From assembly GCF_009914755.1 (NCBI RefSeq), contig NC_060938.1: a stretch of 64,000 bases of DNA; one strand, 5' to 3'. Source of the DNA: the human T2T-CHM13v2.0 reference genome, Homo sapiens. A program made the translations under genes and the position numbers. The notes beneath the pieces were generated by a model. That model saw nothing but the letters and a program-made list of their open reading frames with translations, searched no databases and was not told the origin of the DNA. Of the stretch, positions 6,232-29,795 are shown piece after piece; the first letter of the stretch is position 1; every line of letters begins with the position of its first letter.

Positions 6232-6983
6232 TCAGGCAGGTCTGGTTCTTGATGTCATTGCTTCAAATTCTGATTCCCGTTTATCTTCATCAGATTGCCA
6301 AGGATCGAAAATCAATTTATATCACTTCCTTGCTAACTGAGGGAGTGCACTGAGCTTTGTATTTATTAGCTGGAGAAAAATTCTTATTCAATATAACAGA
6401 TTGCTATATTTCACATTAGTACTATAAACTAAAATTTTCTTTCTCTCTGAAAAACAAAAAAATGCCTCTTCTAGGTGTTTCCACCATACCCTGGGCTTTC
6501 TCCTATCTTAGTACAAATCACACCATGTTGAAATTCCCTATTTATGGGTCTGTTTTTACCTTTGGAGTGTAAGCTTCCTAAAAATAGGGGCTGTGCCTGG
6601 TTCCCTGTTTTATCCCTAGCTCCAAGCACTGCCTGGTACATTAAATAGGCAAGCCTGAAATCGTTTGATGACACTGAGATTTGAAAAGAAAGTAGGCCCA
6701 GAGGGCTGGCAGGATTTCTGTTCAATTGCCCAGTTAGATTAAATAAGGCTACCTAGATGTTTAGAAACAGTGCTCTGTTATGTAAAGGAAGGCTGAAAAT
6801 TTTTAAAATAAAGTCTTCTGGTGGTTTGTTGTTGTTGTTGTTGTTGTTGTTTGGCAAATGAGAAGAAAACATGAGCTGATCCCCTTGTGTACTTAGAATC
6901 CTGAGGTTTTTGTCATGACCCCAAAACACTTCCTAGAAATACCAAGTCTCCTCTGAAGTCTCAATTGGGTATTTGCCTTTCTC

Positions 6984-7839
6984 TCTCTCTCTCTTTTTTT
7001 TTTTTTTTTTTTTTGGAGACTGAGTCTCGCTCCGTCATCCAGGCTCGACTGCAGTGGCAAGATCGTGGCTCACTGCAACCTCCACCTCCTGGAATCAAGC
7101 AATTCTCCTGCCTCAGCCTCTCAATAGCTGGGATTACAGGCGTGCAACACCACGCCCGGCTAATTTTTTTGTATTTTTAGTAGAGACGGGGTTTCACCAT
7201 GCTGGCCAAGCTGGTCTCGAACTCCTGACCTCGTGATCCACCCACCTGGTCTCCCAAAGTGCTGGAAATTACAGGCGCGGTGGCTCACGCCTGTAATTTC
7301 ATGTTTTTATTACCGGTGAACTTAAAATTAAGGTGATATATTTTCTTCTGGCTGACAAGAACAGATAATATCATCCCAGCAAATAGTTTTCTAGAGGCAC
7401 TGAGCCTCCTATAAACATTTTCATTTATCTAACTGGCATCAGAGCAGCCTGCGCCACAACTGTTGCCAGCCTCTTCTCTCAACACCAACCTCATATCGTC
7501 CTTGTGTGTTCCACCCTACCAAGGATAGAGGGATCAAGGAAGCTCCTGTGGCAAACGGATTCAGTTTTATCTCATCCTAAAAAAACACTGTAATGTCATG
7601 AAAAATCAAGCCAAAACTGAGGAGGAAGGAGAGAGAGACGTGACTTTTAGTTTTAACACTTGTCTATTCATTAACCCCACCCACCTCCAATCACTTTTGG
7701 CTCCGGGTACATACGGCTTATATTTATGACTAATGCCTGGTATTCTTTCTTTACCTTGGGCCTTCCTTGGAGGAGCAAATCCTGCTGGAGCTGCCTAGAG
7801 GGTTCTGTGATTTACAGGCGTGAGCCACCGCGCCTGGCC
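6984..7839 (-). mobile_element. AluS interrupted near its 5' end by a templated insertion (Alu parts 6984-7277 and 7815-7839)
   Basis: Alu body up to ...gaaattacaggcg, resuming ttacaggcgtgagccaccgcgcctggcc; TSD-like gggt(a/g)tttgcc at 6967 and 7840. Confidence 0.95.
7301..7814 (-). repeat. Inverted duplicate of 8431-8948 inserted inside an Alu
   Basis: Hand alignment to the reverse complement of 8431-8948 gives ~17 substitutions and 3 small indels (~96% identity). Confidence 0.97.
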
Positions 7840-8430
7840 GGGTGTTTGCCATTTTCTAGCCTCCATACCATCACAAGAACTAGTGAGAACTAAGCCGTAG
7901 TCTATAATAAATGATGTGCTTTCGTTGTTCTCACCAAACTATAACTTTAAGCATTTTTAAAGACTTTTATTAAAGATTCTGTTCTGTCGTTTATCTATAT
8001 GTGAAGCTCAGGAATAAGAAGTATTTCCCAAGCAACCGAGGTTACTGATCTTTGGGTTTGTAGGACCAAATCCTGGGAATTTGAAGTGACTCTCTAATGG
8101 TAAAGTATTAATTAGACCTCTGTAAAATGAATCAGACTCATTTGCTTAATCAGGAGTCACCTCAGTTAAAGGGCCAGCCAGCAAGTAACCTGGCTTAGAT
8201 ACAGTGCTGCTTGTTGTTTCCTTTCCAGCTATTTTAAATAGCTGCTGAAATGGGGCCACGGACTGTTTCTGTTCATCCCATTCCTATCTACCCCCGATGG
8301 TGGATGCAGTTCATATCTGCATGACTCATCTAACATTTGCTGCAGAAGTGAAAAGAATGCGAGGATGCTGAGAATCAAGAGGCACTAAGCAGCCTTTCAG
8401 GACACACAGGGTTTCTGAAATGGGTATCCA

Positions 8431-8948
8431 TAAATCACAGAACCCTCTAGCAGCTCCAGCAGGATTTGCTCCTCCAAGCAAGGCCCAAGGTAAAGAAAGA
8501 ATACCAGGCATTAGTCATAAATATAAGCCGTATGTACCCAGAGCCAAAAGTGATTGGAGGTGGGTGGGGTTAATGAATAGACAAGTGTTAAAACTAAAAG
8601 TCATGCCTATCTCTCCTTCCTCCTCAGTTTTGGCTTGATTTTTCATGACATTACAGTATTTTTTTAAGGATGAAATAAAACTGAATCCGTTTGCCACAGG
8701 AGCTTTCTTGATCCCTCTACCCTTGGTAGGGTGGAACACACAAGGACAATATGAGGCTGGCGTCGAGAGAAGAGGCTGGCAACAGTTGTGGCGCAGGCTG
8801 CTCTGATGCCAGTTAGACAGATAAATGAAAATGTTTATAGGAGGCTCAGTGCCTCTAGAAAACTATTTGCTAGGATGATATTATCTGTCCCTGTCAGCCA
8901 AAAGAAAATATATCACCTTAATTTTAAGTTCACCGGTAATAAAAACAT
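8431..8948 (+). repeat. Donor arm of the ~515-bp inverted repeat
   Basis: taaatcacagaaccctc...ccggtaataaaaacat is the reverse complement of 7301-7814; the spacer between arms is 616 bp. Confidence 0.97.
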
Positions 8949-9609
8949 CTATCTCTAGAAATTCCATAATGTTTCTATGCAGAGTACCAATCACCACTCC
9001 CTCTCTGTAAGGTGGCCCATTCATGTTAGCCTCAAGCCATGTGACACTGAATAACTCTCAGCCAAGCAAACGATGCCCTAAGCAGGCATGAGCTGGTCTT
9101 CCAATTCCTTTGTGTGTGCTGCTTTTGGCATATTTGGTTAATGCACTGTGCAAATATAGTCTGAACATGCTAATTTCTCTTAGTAGCATCAGCTTTGCTT
9201 TATTCCAGTGACAAAAAAGCCTTGTCCGGCCCATCCACATTTCTTGGTGAGGAGGGACATAGTAACCAGCAGCCTGACTAATCCATACTCACTATCAAAG
9301 CAAAATGATTTCAGATGAGAGCTCTATCCTTGGCCCTACTTTACAGAGGAAACTAGTCATTTTCACAGGAAATAACTAGCGTGAAAAAGGACTTTGTTTC
9401 CTAGGGTTTCTTAGTGCAAGCTCTTGTTCTCAGAGACACAAAACTCGGCTTCCTGGTCATCATCTTTGACCTTGGTCACGTCACCTGATCTCTCTATTGT
9501 CTCTTCATCTGCAAAATCGGTTTCTTGTTTGCCTTAGAAGTGTCTCTCCAAAACAGAAAGATACAATATGAGTCCTTGAAGGCGACCTTTCACTATTAAA
9601 TGTATCACT

Positions 9610-9918
9610 TGTGTTGTTCCATTCTTGCATTGCTGTAAAGAAGTACATGAGTGGGGGTGATTTATACAGAGAAGAGGTTTAATTGGCTTATGGTTCTGCA
9701 GGCTGTAAGGAAGCATGGTGCCAGTATCTGCTTCTTGTGAGGGGCTCAGGAAGCTTCCAATCATGGTGGAAGGTGAAGGGGGAGCAGGCCCATCAGAGAG
9801 AGAGAGAGAAAGAGGAGAAGAGAGAAGACAGAGAGGAGGCCCCACACTCTTTTAAACAACCAGATCTCACCTGAACTCAGAGTGAGAACTTACTCATTAG
9901 TGCGAGGATGGCACCAAC
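9610..9918 (-). mobile_element. MaLR LTR (MSTB-like), partial
   Basis: aagaggtttaattggcttatggttctgcaggctgtaaggaagcatggtgccag...ttttaaacaaccagatctc. Confidence 0.85.
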
Positions 9919-10649: not shown

Positions 10650-11445
<796 letters not shown>

Positions 11446-13635: not shown

Positions 13636-14291
<656 letters not shown>

Positions 14292-14659
14292 CAGCCCAGT
14301 TTCTTTAAGCTTACTGCATCAGAATGCCTCATCAGTAGTGATCACCATAGGGAGGGGAGGGGTCAACAGGGACAGTAGGATATTACTTTTATTTCACACA
14401 CTCCCACCCATCCATTCTCCTAACAGAGTTTCTCTAGTAGTGACCCTACATTTGGAAGGGAAGAAAAGCAACTTAGTGAGAAACCTAAACCTTAATAATG
14501 CTCCCAATTTGGGGGGATGGCAAAATGTTAGAAACATTCAAGACGGTGAAAAGTGCATCTAGCCAGGTGTCTTAAACCTGGGTTTAAGTCCTTTGTTCTG
14601 ACACTGTGTTATGGCTATGTTTTCTTTCTCCTTTCTTTTCTTTTTCTTTCTTTTCTTTT

Positions 14660-29378: not shown

Positions 29379-29795
<417 letters not shown>

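What the first reader, a model, noticed from the sequence alone, without database searches (positions are those of the whole stretch)
7301..8948. ~515-bp, ~96%-identical non-Alu inverted repeat: predicted long dsRNA in GNG2 pre-mRNA and a micro-inversion substrate
Seen: two arms in opposite orientation only 616 bp apart, in sequence I do not recognise as a repeat, inside the inferred GNG2 upstream intron. Established: long intramolecular duplexes are ADAR substrates and can engage Dicer, PKR or MDA5, and close inverted repeats promote NAHR inversions and gene conversion. Inference: the duplex is longer and better paired than typical inverted Alu pairs. It may be a hyper-edited or endo-siRNA-producing lineage-specific structure, and the 7815-8430 spacer may be orientation-polymorphic.
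Basis: partly seen in the sequence, partly recalled or inferred. Interest (0 to 1): 0.75.

Follow-up and report, generated by a model that had tools for sequence, protein, structure and literature searches.

The report
Inverted duplication hairpin in GNG2 intron
A 0.5-kb piece of unique DNA in a GNG2 intron was copied backwards into a neighbouring Alu by a replication template-switch error, leaving a long predicted RNA hairpin that is most likely a harmless by-product.

Summary
The arms are 7301-7814 and 8431-8948. They match in 496 of 519 aligned columns (95.6%) and lie 616 nt apart. The human assembly holds only these two copies of the arm.

New here is the origin. The left arm is the derived copy. 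It sits inside the head of a minus-strand Alu, whose body ends at 7277 and whose head resumes at 7812. Beside it lies a 23-nt inverted copy of that same Alu (7278-7300), and 9 nt of the target are duplicated. This is the signature of a multi-step replication template switch that post-dates the Alu.

The sense RNA folds into a ~500-bp duplex with MFE -1084.5 kcal/mol, broken at least every 65 bp. It is intronic, so nuclear ADAR editing is plausible but MDA5 or PKR sensing is unlikely. The longest identical tract is 63 bp, which argues against frequent inversion. Editing, small RNAs and haplotype orientation could not be tested.

One oddity is unexplained. Thirteen of the 15 transitions between the arms give A·C mismatches in the sense RNA, and the same 13 would be G·U pairs in an antisense RNA (post hoc p≈0.009).

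Verdict: real, ordinary in kind, probably neutral.

The parts
6994..7277 (-). Body of the host Alu (minus orientation), cut off at 7277
   Evidence: BLAST against other Alus of the window: 6994-7277 matches reference Alu positions 383 to 99. An Rfam SRP-like hit lies at 7014-7160 on the minus strand.
7278..7300 (+). 23-nt inverted copy of the host Alu's own sequence. With 7265-7277 it forms a 13-bp stem and 10-nt loop palindrome (junction J1 at 7277|7278, junction J2 at 7300|7301).
   Evidence: The reverse complement of 7278-7300 equals 7265-7277 followed by 7821-7830, 23 of 23. The DNA fold of 7260-7305 is -13.7 kcal/mol, z = -5.25, and 0 of 200 shuffles fold as well. In one search, 7274-7297 matches the reference Alu in the opposite orientation to the Alu body.
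7301..7814 (+). Left arm: the derived, inverted copy of 8431-8948, inserted into the Alu
   Evidence: Alignment. Alu sequence flanks it on both sides.
7812..7842 (-). Head of the host Alu, resuming after the insertion. 7812-7820 (TTACAGGCG) duplicates 7269-7277. TTA at 7812-7814 is shared with the end of the arm (junction J3).
   Evidence: both 9-mers printed and identical. In one search, 7805-7839 matches reference Alu positions 113 to 80.
7815..8430 (+). Spacer, which is the hairpin loop (616 nt). 7844-8430 is single-copy DNA.
   Evidence: for the coordinates. In one search, 1 of 1 candidates in the genome was the query itself.
8431..8948 (+). Right arm: the source copy, contiguous with unique DNA on both sides
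   Evidence: In one search the right flank is unique for about 655 nt, to about window 9604, where an interspersed repeat begins.

Best explanation
The locus is an inverted duplication of 518 nt of unique intronic DNA, made in one complex replication or repair error of the template-switching kind (FoSTeS/MMBIR, serial replication slippage, a large 'template-switch mutation').

A growing DNA strand left its template inside the head of an Alu. It copied the segment 8431-8948 from the opposite strand 616 nt away, then copied 23 nt of the Alu itself from the opposite strand. It then returned to its original template 9 nt behind the point where it had left.

The event post-dates the Alu, so it is primate-specific. 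Arm divergence suggests roughly 8-34 million years, depending on the assumed rate.

The consequence is a ~500-bp hairpin with a 616-nt loop in intron 2 of the GNG2 pre-mRNA. I infer three things. The hairpin forms co-transcriptionally. It is a nuclear ADAR substrate, best at the 13 adenosines that sit opposite C. It is discarded with the intron, with no selected function and no access to cytosolic dsRNA sensors.

Shown here: the anatomy, the copy number, the direction of copying, the junction microhomologies and the predicted fold. Inferred: the mechanism class, the age, the editing and neutrality.
For: 1. The arms match in 496 of 519 columns. Only two copies exist in the 3.1-Gb assembly, and the spacer is single-copy.
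2. The left arm interrupts an Alu. The body 6994-7277 and the head 7805-7839 match one reference Alu at positions 383 to 99 and 113 to 80 in the same orientation. 7274-7297 matches it in the opposite orientation.
3. The 23-nt piece 7278-7300 is an exact inverted copy of this Alu's own sequence (23 of 23). It forms a palindrome with z = -5.25.
4. The 9-nt TTACAGGCG is present at both 7269-7277 and 7812-7820.
5. Junction homologies, read. J1 has a 5-nt inverted microhomology, AGGCG/CGCCT. J2 is blunt. J3 has a 3-nt TTA at the end of a 7-of-10 match (CTGTGATTTA against CTGGAAATTA). J3 meets the published definition of microhomeology: at least 5 bp at 70% or more, with observed sizes of 7-14 bp (PMC6902434 passages).
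6. Published precedents:
   - Fold-back inverted duplications have an unduplicated spacer (766 bp-70 kb) and 2-8 bp of inverted microhomology (PMC3907307 passages).
   - Fold-back insertions can be primed at short inverted microhomologies (PMC11724301 passages).
   - Template-switch mutations create hairpins in a single event in primates (PMC10710096 passages).
7. The host Alu is 10.8% (30 of 279) from the window's Alu majority consensus. The arms differ by 3.3% (17 of 513).
8. The sense-RNA fold has MFE -1084.5 kcal/mol, and 497 of 514 left-arm nt pair with the right arm.
9. Intronic dsRNA is described as not sensed by MDA5.
Against: - No outgroup genome was available. The age and the claim that the event is fixed and old rest only on arm divergence and an assumed rate.
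- The direction of strand travel and the exact enzymology cannot be read from the product. A double-strand-break repair route with templated synthesis fits the same junctions.
- One junction (J2) has no microhomology.
- The neutral reading does not explain the strand asymmetry of the differences. There are 13 A·C-type against 2 G·U-type transitions in the sense RNA. The local control gives 122 against 110, so p = 0.0085. The test is post hoc.
- The differences are mildly clustered: 5 of 16 gaps are 4 nt or less, simulation p = 0.033.
- No RNA data were seen, so folding in vivo, editing and expression of this intron stretch are untested.
Confidence: 0.75

Rival explanations
1. The hairpin has been shaped by selection on RNA pairing. 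Either an antisense (minus-strand) hairpin RNA is maintained, in the manner of hpRNA or endo-siRNA precursors, or mutations that break the sense-strand duplex in GNG2 pre-mRNA were favoured.
For: 13 of 15 transitions are A·C mismatches in the sense RNA and G·U wobbles in a minus-strand RNA. The antisense fold has MFE -1128.3 kcal/mol with helices of 125, 124 and 113 bp. The sense fold has -1084.5 kcal/mol with a longest helix of 65 bp. The 10 Alus of the window show no such strand bias, 122 against 110. 13 of 17 substitutions are antisense-pairing-compatible; if the neutral fraction is taken as 1/3 (an assumed 2:1 transition:transversion ratio, half of transitions on each strand), p = 3e-4. 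That test is post hoc, and either strand could have been chosen. Long near-perfect dsRNA is reported as depleted even in pre-mRNA (PMC7006430 passages).
Against: The sample is 15 sites and the test was chosen after seeing the data. No antisense gene is annotated over the locus in the hub table. There is no Rfam match in the arms except one chance-level hit (sR60, E = 0.99). Three indels and 2 transversions break pairing on both strands. No RNA data were available. An error-prone polymerase at the birth of the copy could give the same bias, because G·T mispairs on one nascent strand would produce it.
Confidence: 0.06
2. The arms mediate non-allelic homologous recombination, so the 616-nt spacer is orientation-polymorphic in humans.
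For: There are two inverted arms of about 515 nt only 616 nt apart. A review notes NAHR between repeats 5 kb apart through matching stretches under 50 bp, with proximity lowering the demand (PMC2583991).
Against: The longest identical tract is 63 bp, against a quoted 300-500 bp for meiotic and 134-232 bp for cell-culture recombination. The differences are spread along the whole arm with no long converted tract. In this haplotype the spacer has the original orientation, because the Alu head at 7812-7842 continues the Alu body. No paper held the terms GNG2, inversion and inverted repeats together (0 papers).
Confidence: 0.1
3. The duplex acts as an immunogenic or Dicer-processed dsRNA, engaging MDA5, PKR or the endo-siRNA pathway.
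For: The length of about 500 bp exceeds the 300 bp said to favour MDA5 (PMC11838218 section 10). Pairing of 95.6-97% is near the 96% cut-off used for 'long, highly paired' dsRNAs.
Against: The duplex is intronic, and both arms lie in one intron. Intronic dsRNAs are described as removed by splicing and not sensed. The sense duplex is broken at least every 65 bp. It is not among the 197 human long near-perfect structures of PMC7006430 Table S8: there are 10 chr14 rows, the nearest at 50.2 and 58.1 Mb and none near GNG2 by my recalled coordinates. This is consistent with its 95.6% lying below their cut-off of more than 96%.
Confidence: 0.03
4. The unit is a mobile element with long terminal inverted repeats (a foldback-type transposon), or an assembly artefact.
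For: The shape, two long inverted arms around a spacer, resembles such elements.
Against: There is only one locus in the genome. There is no target duplication outside the unit; the outer flanks differ. The Alu continues on the inner side of the left arm, which a transposon insertion cannot give. The longest stop-to-stop frame is 115 aa. The arms differ at 23 columns with a CpG-rich transition spectrum, which an assembly duplication would not show.
Confidence: 0.01

Closest known systems
Template-switch mutations (TSMs) that create hairpins in primate genomes (Löytynoja and Goldman; Mönttinen et al., PMC10710096)
   Same: [quoted passage not shown]
   Different: Those events were detected as inverted fragments of 15 nt or more, and the miRNA-like stems are 30-55 nt. 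Here the copied tract is 518 nt plus a second 23-nt tract, taken from 616 nt away, with three junctions.
Fold-back inverted duplications and MMBIR/FoSTeS complex rearrangements (PMC3907307, PMC2621351, PMC11724301, PMC6902434)
   Same: An unduplicated spacer lies between the inverted and direct copies. Short inverted microhomology sits at the junction. Microhomeology and local fold-back pieces are present.
   Different: The Hermetz cases are megabase-scale, pathogenic and joined to terminal deletions. The yeast fold-backs are mostly under 14 bp. This one is 0.5 kb, interstitial and carried in a reference human haplotype. PMC2621351 was seen only as a search listing and the start of its abstract.
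Inverted-repeat Alu pairs in introns (the bulk ADAR substrates)
   Same: An intramolecular duplex between two inverted copies within one pre-mRNA intron, expected to be edited in the nucleus and discarded.
   Different: The arms are unique DNA, not Alu. They are 514 nt at 95.6%, against at most 309 nt at 87% for the Alu pairs of this window.
hpRNA or endo-siRNA hairpin loci of flies and mouse oocytes (recalled, not looked up here)
   Same: A long hairpin born from an inverted duplication of non-repeat sequence.
   Different: There is no evidence of small RNAs here. The locus is intronic in a somatic, neuronally expressed gene.
Inversions flanked by inverted repeats (NAHR)
   Same: Inverted arms around a short spacer.
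   Different: The arms are short and diverged, with a maximum identical tract of 63 bp. No alternative orientation is known.

Membership tests
Templated inverted insertion by template switching or fold-back (replicative rearrangement) | Donor sequence nearby on the same chromosome, copied in the opposite orientation | tested here: met
   The donor 8431-8948 lies 616 nt from the copy 7301-7814. There is no other copy in the genome.
Templated inverted insertion by template switching or fold-back (replicative rearrangement) | Micro-homology or microhomeology at the switch points | tested here: met
   J1 has 5 nt (AGGCG/CGCCT). J3 has 3 nt within a 7-of-10 match. J2 has none. That is 2 of 3 junctions.
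Templated inverted insertion by template switching or fold-back (replicative rearrangement) | Interrupted target whose two halves are recognisable, with a short duplication or deletion at the return point | tested here: met
   The Alu body and head are split. A 9-nt duplication is present.
Templated inverted insertion by template switching or fold-back (replicative rearrangement) | Absence of the insertion in an outgroup or ancestral allele | not testable with these tools
   No primate genome or pangenome is held. The search tool states that the assembly has no relatives here.
ADAR-edited long dsRNA (editing-enriched region) | Stable intramolecular duplex in a transcribed region | tested here: met
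   The location within the GNG2 span comes from the hub table, not from RNA data.
ADAR-edited long dsRNA (editing-enriched region) | Clusters of A-to-G mismatches in RNA on both arms | not testable with these tools
   No RNA-seq or editing database is held. The text searches 'GNG2 + RNA editing + ADAR' (6 papers held the terms, 5 listed, none on this by title) and 'GNG2 + A-to-I' (1 paper, unrelated) gave nothing.
Inverted-repeat Alu pair | Both arms are Alu elements | tested here: not met
   The arms have 2 genomic copies only. There are no SRP or Alu hits within the arms.
Transposon with long terminal inverted repeats | Several copies in the genome and a target-site duplication outside the arms | tested here: not met
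   Searches show a single locus. The outer flanks differ.
NAHR-mediated polymorphic inversion | Identity tracts at or above the minimal efficient processing segment | tested here: not met
   The longest tract is 63 bp, against 300-500 bp meiotic and 134-232 bp in culture. The review lists exceptions for close repeats.
NAHR-mediated polymorphic inversion | Both orientations observed among haplotypes | not testable with these tools
   No pangenome is held. The one haplotype seen has the original orientation.
hpRNA / endo-siRNA locus | 21-23-nt reads mapping to both arms | not testable with these tools
   No small-RNA data are held.

The most novel reading that the evidence does not exclude
The differences between the arms may not be neutral decay. 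Thirteen of 15 transitions break pairing in the GNG2 sense RNA, as A·C mismatches. The same 13 keep pairing in a minus-strand RNA, as G·U wobbles. This could be a footprint of selection acting on a young long dsRNA. Either it is being disarmed in the pre-mRNA of a strongly expressed gene, or it is kept as an antisense hairpin precursor. A third non-neutral reading is a mutational scar: the copy was made by an error-prone polymerase that left G·T mispairs on one strand. That would give a rare direct view of the fidelity of template-switch synthesis in the primate germline.
Probability: 0.08. Interest if true: 0.65.

Novelty: new member of a known kind. Interest (0 to 1): 0.3.

Why it matters
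In itself the locus is an ordinary structural mutation with no shown function. Its value is as a clean, fully readable example. All three junctions of a half-kilobase template-switch event are preserved, and the event created a long non-repeat RNA hairpin inside a gene.

Genome-wide surveys count only about 2,000 long, highly paired dsRNAs in the human genome. Of these, 88% are intergenic and most lie between LINEs (PMC11838218). A genic, non-repeat example just under the 96% threshold is therefore uncommon.

If the strand bias of its mismatches proved real across many such loci, it would bear on how genomes neutralise newborn dsRNA. This single locus cannot show that.

Tried and rejected
- Rfam scan of 6900-9300 at E ≤ 1: only Alu-related hits and one chance-level snoRNA hit (E = 0.99) in the left arm. 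No miRNA or other family in the arms or spacer.
- Stop-to-stop frames over 7250-9000: 14 of 50 aa or more, the longest 115 aa. They were not followed further because nothing suggested coding.
- Transposon reading: rejected.
- Barak et al. Table S8, 197 human long near-perfect inverted duplicates: 10 chr14 rows, none near GNG2 by my recalled coordinates of the gene.
- dsRNAscan tables S1, S2 and S5, which might list this hairpin, are not held. Only an 11-kb PDF text is held, with no mention of GNG2 or chr14.
- Text searches: GNG2 + inversion + inverted repeats gave 0 papers. GNG2 + RNA editing + ADAR found 6 papers (5 listed), none relevant by title. GNG2 + A-to-I gave 1 paper, unrelated. Supplementary tables of editing atlases are not searched by these calls, so the site may still be listed there.
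- A local strand-biased mutation process as the cause of the 13:2 asymmetry: not supported by the 10 Alus of the window, 122 against 110. Window-wide GC and AT skews are small and change sign.
- An APOBEC-type context at the G/A differences: reading the alignment by eye, the bases following the seven sites are G, A, A, C, C, T and C. There is no pattern.
- An intrastrand hairpin fold-back as the origin of the 23-nt piece: rejected. The 10-nt loop has the reverse-complement orientation of the Alu sequence, which needs a switch to the opposite strand.
Full report
**1. The observation**

A gapped local alignment of 7250-7860 with the reverse complement of 8400-9000 gives arms 7301-7814 and 8431-8948. 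496 of 519 aligned columns are identical (95.6%), with 17 substitutions and three indels of 4, 1 and 1 nt. The spacer is 616 nt. The gapless repeat finder reports the same repeat as three segments.

**2. It is not an interspersed repeat**

The window's own assembly is held: 3.1 Gb in 24 contigs, with the window at C14:46128001-46192000.
- A search with the left arm returned two places, the two arms, from 2 candidates, both scored.
- The spacer part 7844-8430 returned only itself.
- The right flank is unique for about 655 nt, until an abundant repeat starts near 9605-9610.
- The tool warns that very common words are skipped and that counts are lower bounds. A very old, highly diverged repeat family cannot be excluded.
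- Rfam gives only Alu/SRP-related hits in 7014-7295 and one chance-level hit in the left arm.
- No long open frame is present.

**3.

The sequence left of the left arm is a minus-strand Alu. BLAST against the other Alus of the window shows three pieces:
- 6994-7277 matches a reference Alu from its position 383 down to 99.
- 7805-7839 matches positions 113 down to 80 in the same orientation.
- 7274-7297 matches positions 85 to 108 in the opposite orientation.

So the Alu is split, and its head resumes directly after the left arm. The reverse complement of 7278-7300 is identical, 23 of 23, to 7265-7277 followed by 7821-7830. That is the uninterrupted reading of this very Alu. Together with 7265-7277 it makes a 13-bp stem and 10-nt loop palindrome: DNA fold -13.7 kcal/mol, z = -5.25, and 0 of 200 shuffles fold as well. 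The nonamer TTACAGGCG occurs at both 7269-7277 and 7812-7820.

The derived structure therefore reads:
- Alu body
- J1
- inverted 23 nt of the Alu
- J2
- inverted copy of 8431-8948
- J3
- 9-nt duplicated Alu sequence, then the Alu head
- unique spacer
- source segment

The right arm is contiguous with unique DNA on both sides, whereas the left arm is embedded in an Alu. The left arm is therefore the copy, and the event is younger than the Alu.

**4. Junctions**

- J1 (7277|7278). The 3' end AGGCG is the reverse complement of CGCCT, which follows the copied 23 nt in the uninterrupted Alu. This is a 5-nt inverted microhomology.
- J2 (7300|7301). No shared base; a blunt switch.
- J3 (7812-7814). 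TTA is shared by the end of the arm copy and by the Alu. It lies at the end of a 7-of-10 match, CTGTGATTTA against CTGGAAATTA.

J3 fits the published definition of microhomeology: at least 5 bp at 70% identity or more, with observed sizes of 7-14 bp and a microhomology often at one end (PMC6902434, passages).

The 10-nt loop of the small palindrome has the reverse-complement orientation of the Alu sequence. The 23-nt piece was therefore copied from the opposite strand and was not made by a simple intrastrand hairpin.

The whole product is explained by three switches of one growing strand:
- out of the Alu,
- onto the opposite strand of a segment 616 nt away, then onto the opposite strand of the Alu,
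- back to the original template 9 nt behind the point of departure.

Read in the other direction, the first switch is a fold-back of the strand on itself, with the 616-nt spacer as the loop.

Published parallels:
- Human fold-back inverted duplications have an unduplicated spacer (766 bp-70 kb) and 2-8 bp of inverted microhomology (PMC3907307, passages).
- Fold-back insertions in yeast are primed at short inverted microhomologies next to a break, with MMBIR-like features (PMC11724301, passages).
- Template-switch mutations create whole hairpins in one event in primates (PMC10710096, passages).

I cannot tell a stalled fork from a break-repair route, nor the direction of synthesis.

**5. Age**

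The arms differ at 17 of 513 ungapped sites (3.3%; Jukes-Cantor 0.034). With assumed rates of 2.2e-9 to 0.5e-9 per site per year (my assumption, recalled), this gives 8-34 million years, or about 14-17 at 1.0-1.2e-9.

The host Alu is 10.8% (30 of 279) from the majority consensus of the window's ten Alus. It is therefore several times older than the duplication.

If part of the differences arose during the copying itself, the event is younger than these figures. Gene conversion would make it older. No outgroup was available.

**6. The RNA**

The plus-strand (GNG2 sense) RNA 7301-8948 folds with MFE -1084.5 kcal/mol. 497 of 514 left-arm nucleotides pair with the right arm, in 19 uninterrupted runs, the longest 65 bp. 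Only 2 pairs are G·U.

Every other inverted pair within 10 kb in the window lies at Alu coordinates and is at most 309 nt and 87% complementary.

By the hub table the locus lies in the intron between exon 2 (left of the window) and exon 29668-29783 of NM_053064.5. No exon lies between the arms, so the hairpin loops out only 616 nt and cannot bring exons together.

**7. What it most likely does**

Intron-intron duplexes are the bulk of ADAR substrates and never reach the cytoplasm (PMC7006430 discussion passage; PMC12695637 passages). I therefore expect nuclear editing and disposal with the intron, and no MDA5 or PKR engagement. An exception would be rare intron-retaining transcripts.

ADAR is known to prefer adenosines opposite cytidine (recalled). 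The 13 A·C mismatch adenosines listed are specific predicted sites. Editing there would repair the helix rather than loosen it.

The hairpin is not among the 197 long near-perfect human structures of PMC7006430 Table S8. There are 10 chr14 rows, none near GNG2 by my recalled coordinates. This agrees with its 95.6% lying under their cut-off of more than 96%.

In the dsRNAscan survey only 2,018 predicted dsRNAs are longer than 300 bp and more than 96% paired. Of these, 88% are intergenic and most lie between LINEs (PMC11838218 section 10). Its tables are not held.

**8. Inversion**

The longest identical tract between the arms is 63 bp, followed by 60, 53, 50, 48 and 47. A review gives 300-500 bp for human meiotic NAHR, and a 20-fold drop in cell culture when uninterrupted homology falls from 232 to 134 bp. 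It also reports NAHR through matches under 50 bp between repeats 5 kb apart (PMC2583991 section 7).

The haplotype in hand has the original spacer orientation, because the Alu head continues the Alu body across the insertion. I rate a polymorphic inversion as possible but unlikely, at about 0.1.

**9. An unexplained asymmetry**

Of the 17 substitutions, 15 are transitions. Thirteen put A opposite C in the sense RNA, with 7 adenosines in the left arm and 6 in the right. Only 2 give G·U.

Equivalently, every one of the 13 is a G>A or T>C change on the plus strand, whichever arm changed. In a minus-strand RNA the same 13 would be G·U wobbles. The antisense fold has MFE -1128.3 kcal/mol with helices of 125, 124 and 113 bp.

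As a local control, the ten Alus of the window were compared with their majority consensus. They show 122 against 110 transitions in the two classes, or 52.6%. Against that rate, 13 of 15 has p = 0.0085. The test is post hoc.

The differences are also mildly clustered: 5 of 16 gaps are 4 nt or less, p = 0.033 by simulation.

Five of the 15 transitions involve CpG sites, as ordinary germline decay would give (my reading).

Candidate causes are:
- chance,
- G·T mispairs by an error-prone polymerase, if the bottom strand of the left arm was the nascent strand,
- selection against the sense duplex,
- selection for an antisense hairpin.

Polarising the changes with outgroups would separate these.

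**10. Verdict**

The feature is real. Its origin can be read base by base as a multi-step template-switch inverted duplication into an Alu. It is a new instance of known kinds: a template-switch or fold-back rearrangement, and an intronic long dsRNA. Nothing points to a function. Editing, small RNAs and orientation polymorphism remain untested.

Noticed in passing
window 7301-7814 vs 8431-8948: 13 of 15 transition differences between the arms are A·C mismatches in the plus-strand RNA and would be G·U pairs in a minus-strand RNA. The Alus of the window show no such strand bias, 122 against 110. Post hoc p = 0.0085.
   Followed up: partly
window 8958-8963: The hexamer GAAATT, which is the first six bases of the 23-nt Alu piece joined to the arm at the blunt junction J2, also lies 9 nt beyond the end of the right arm. 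It may be a nearby annealing site for the switch, or it may be chance.
   Followed up: no
window 10930-11238 and 13985-14293: This is the best inverted Alu pair of the window: 309 nt, 87% complementary, 2746 nt apart, also inside the GNG2 intron. It is an ordinary candidate ADAR substrate.
   Followed up: no
window about 9605-9700: An abundant interspersed repeat starts here. The genome search gave 2114 first-look candidates, 40 of them scored, at 83-89% identity. The family was not identified.
   Followed up: no
window 7831-7835 and 7273-7277: The host Alu reads CGCCT where the window's Alu majority consensus, in this orientation, has CGCCC. This private change lengthens the Alu's internal inverted microhomology used at junction J1 from 4 to 5 nt.
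   Followed up: partly
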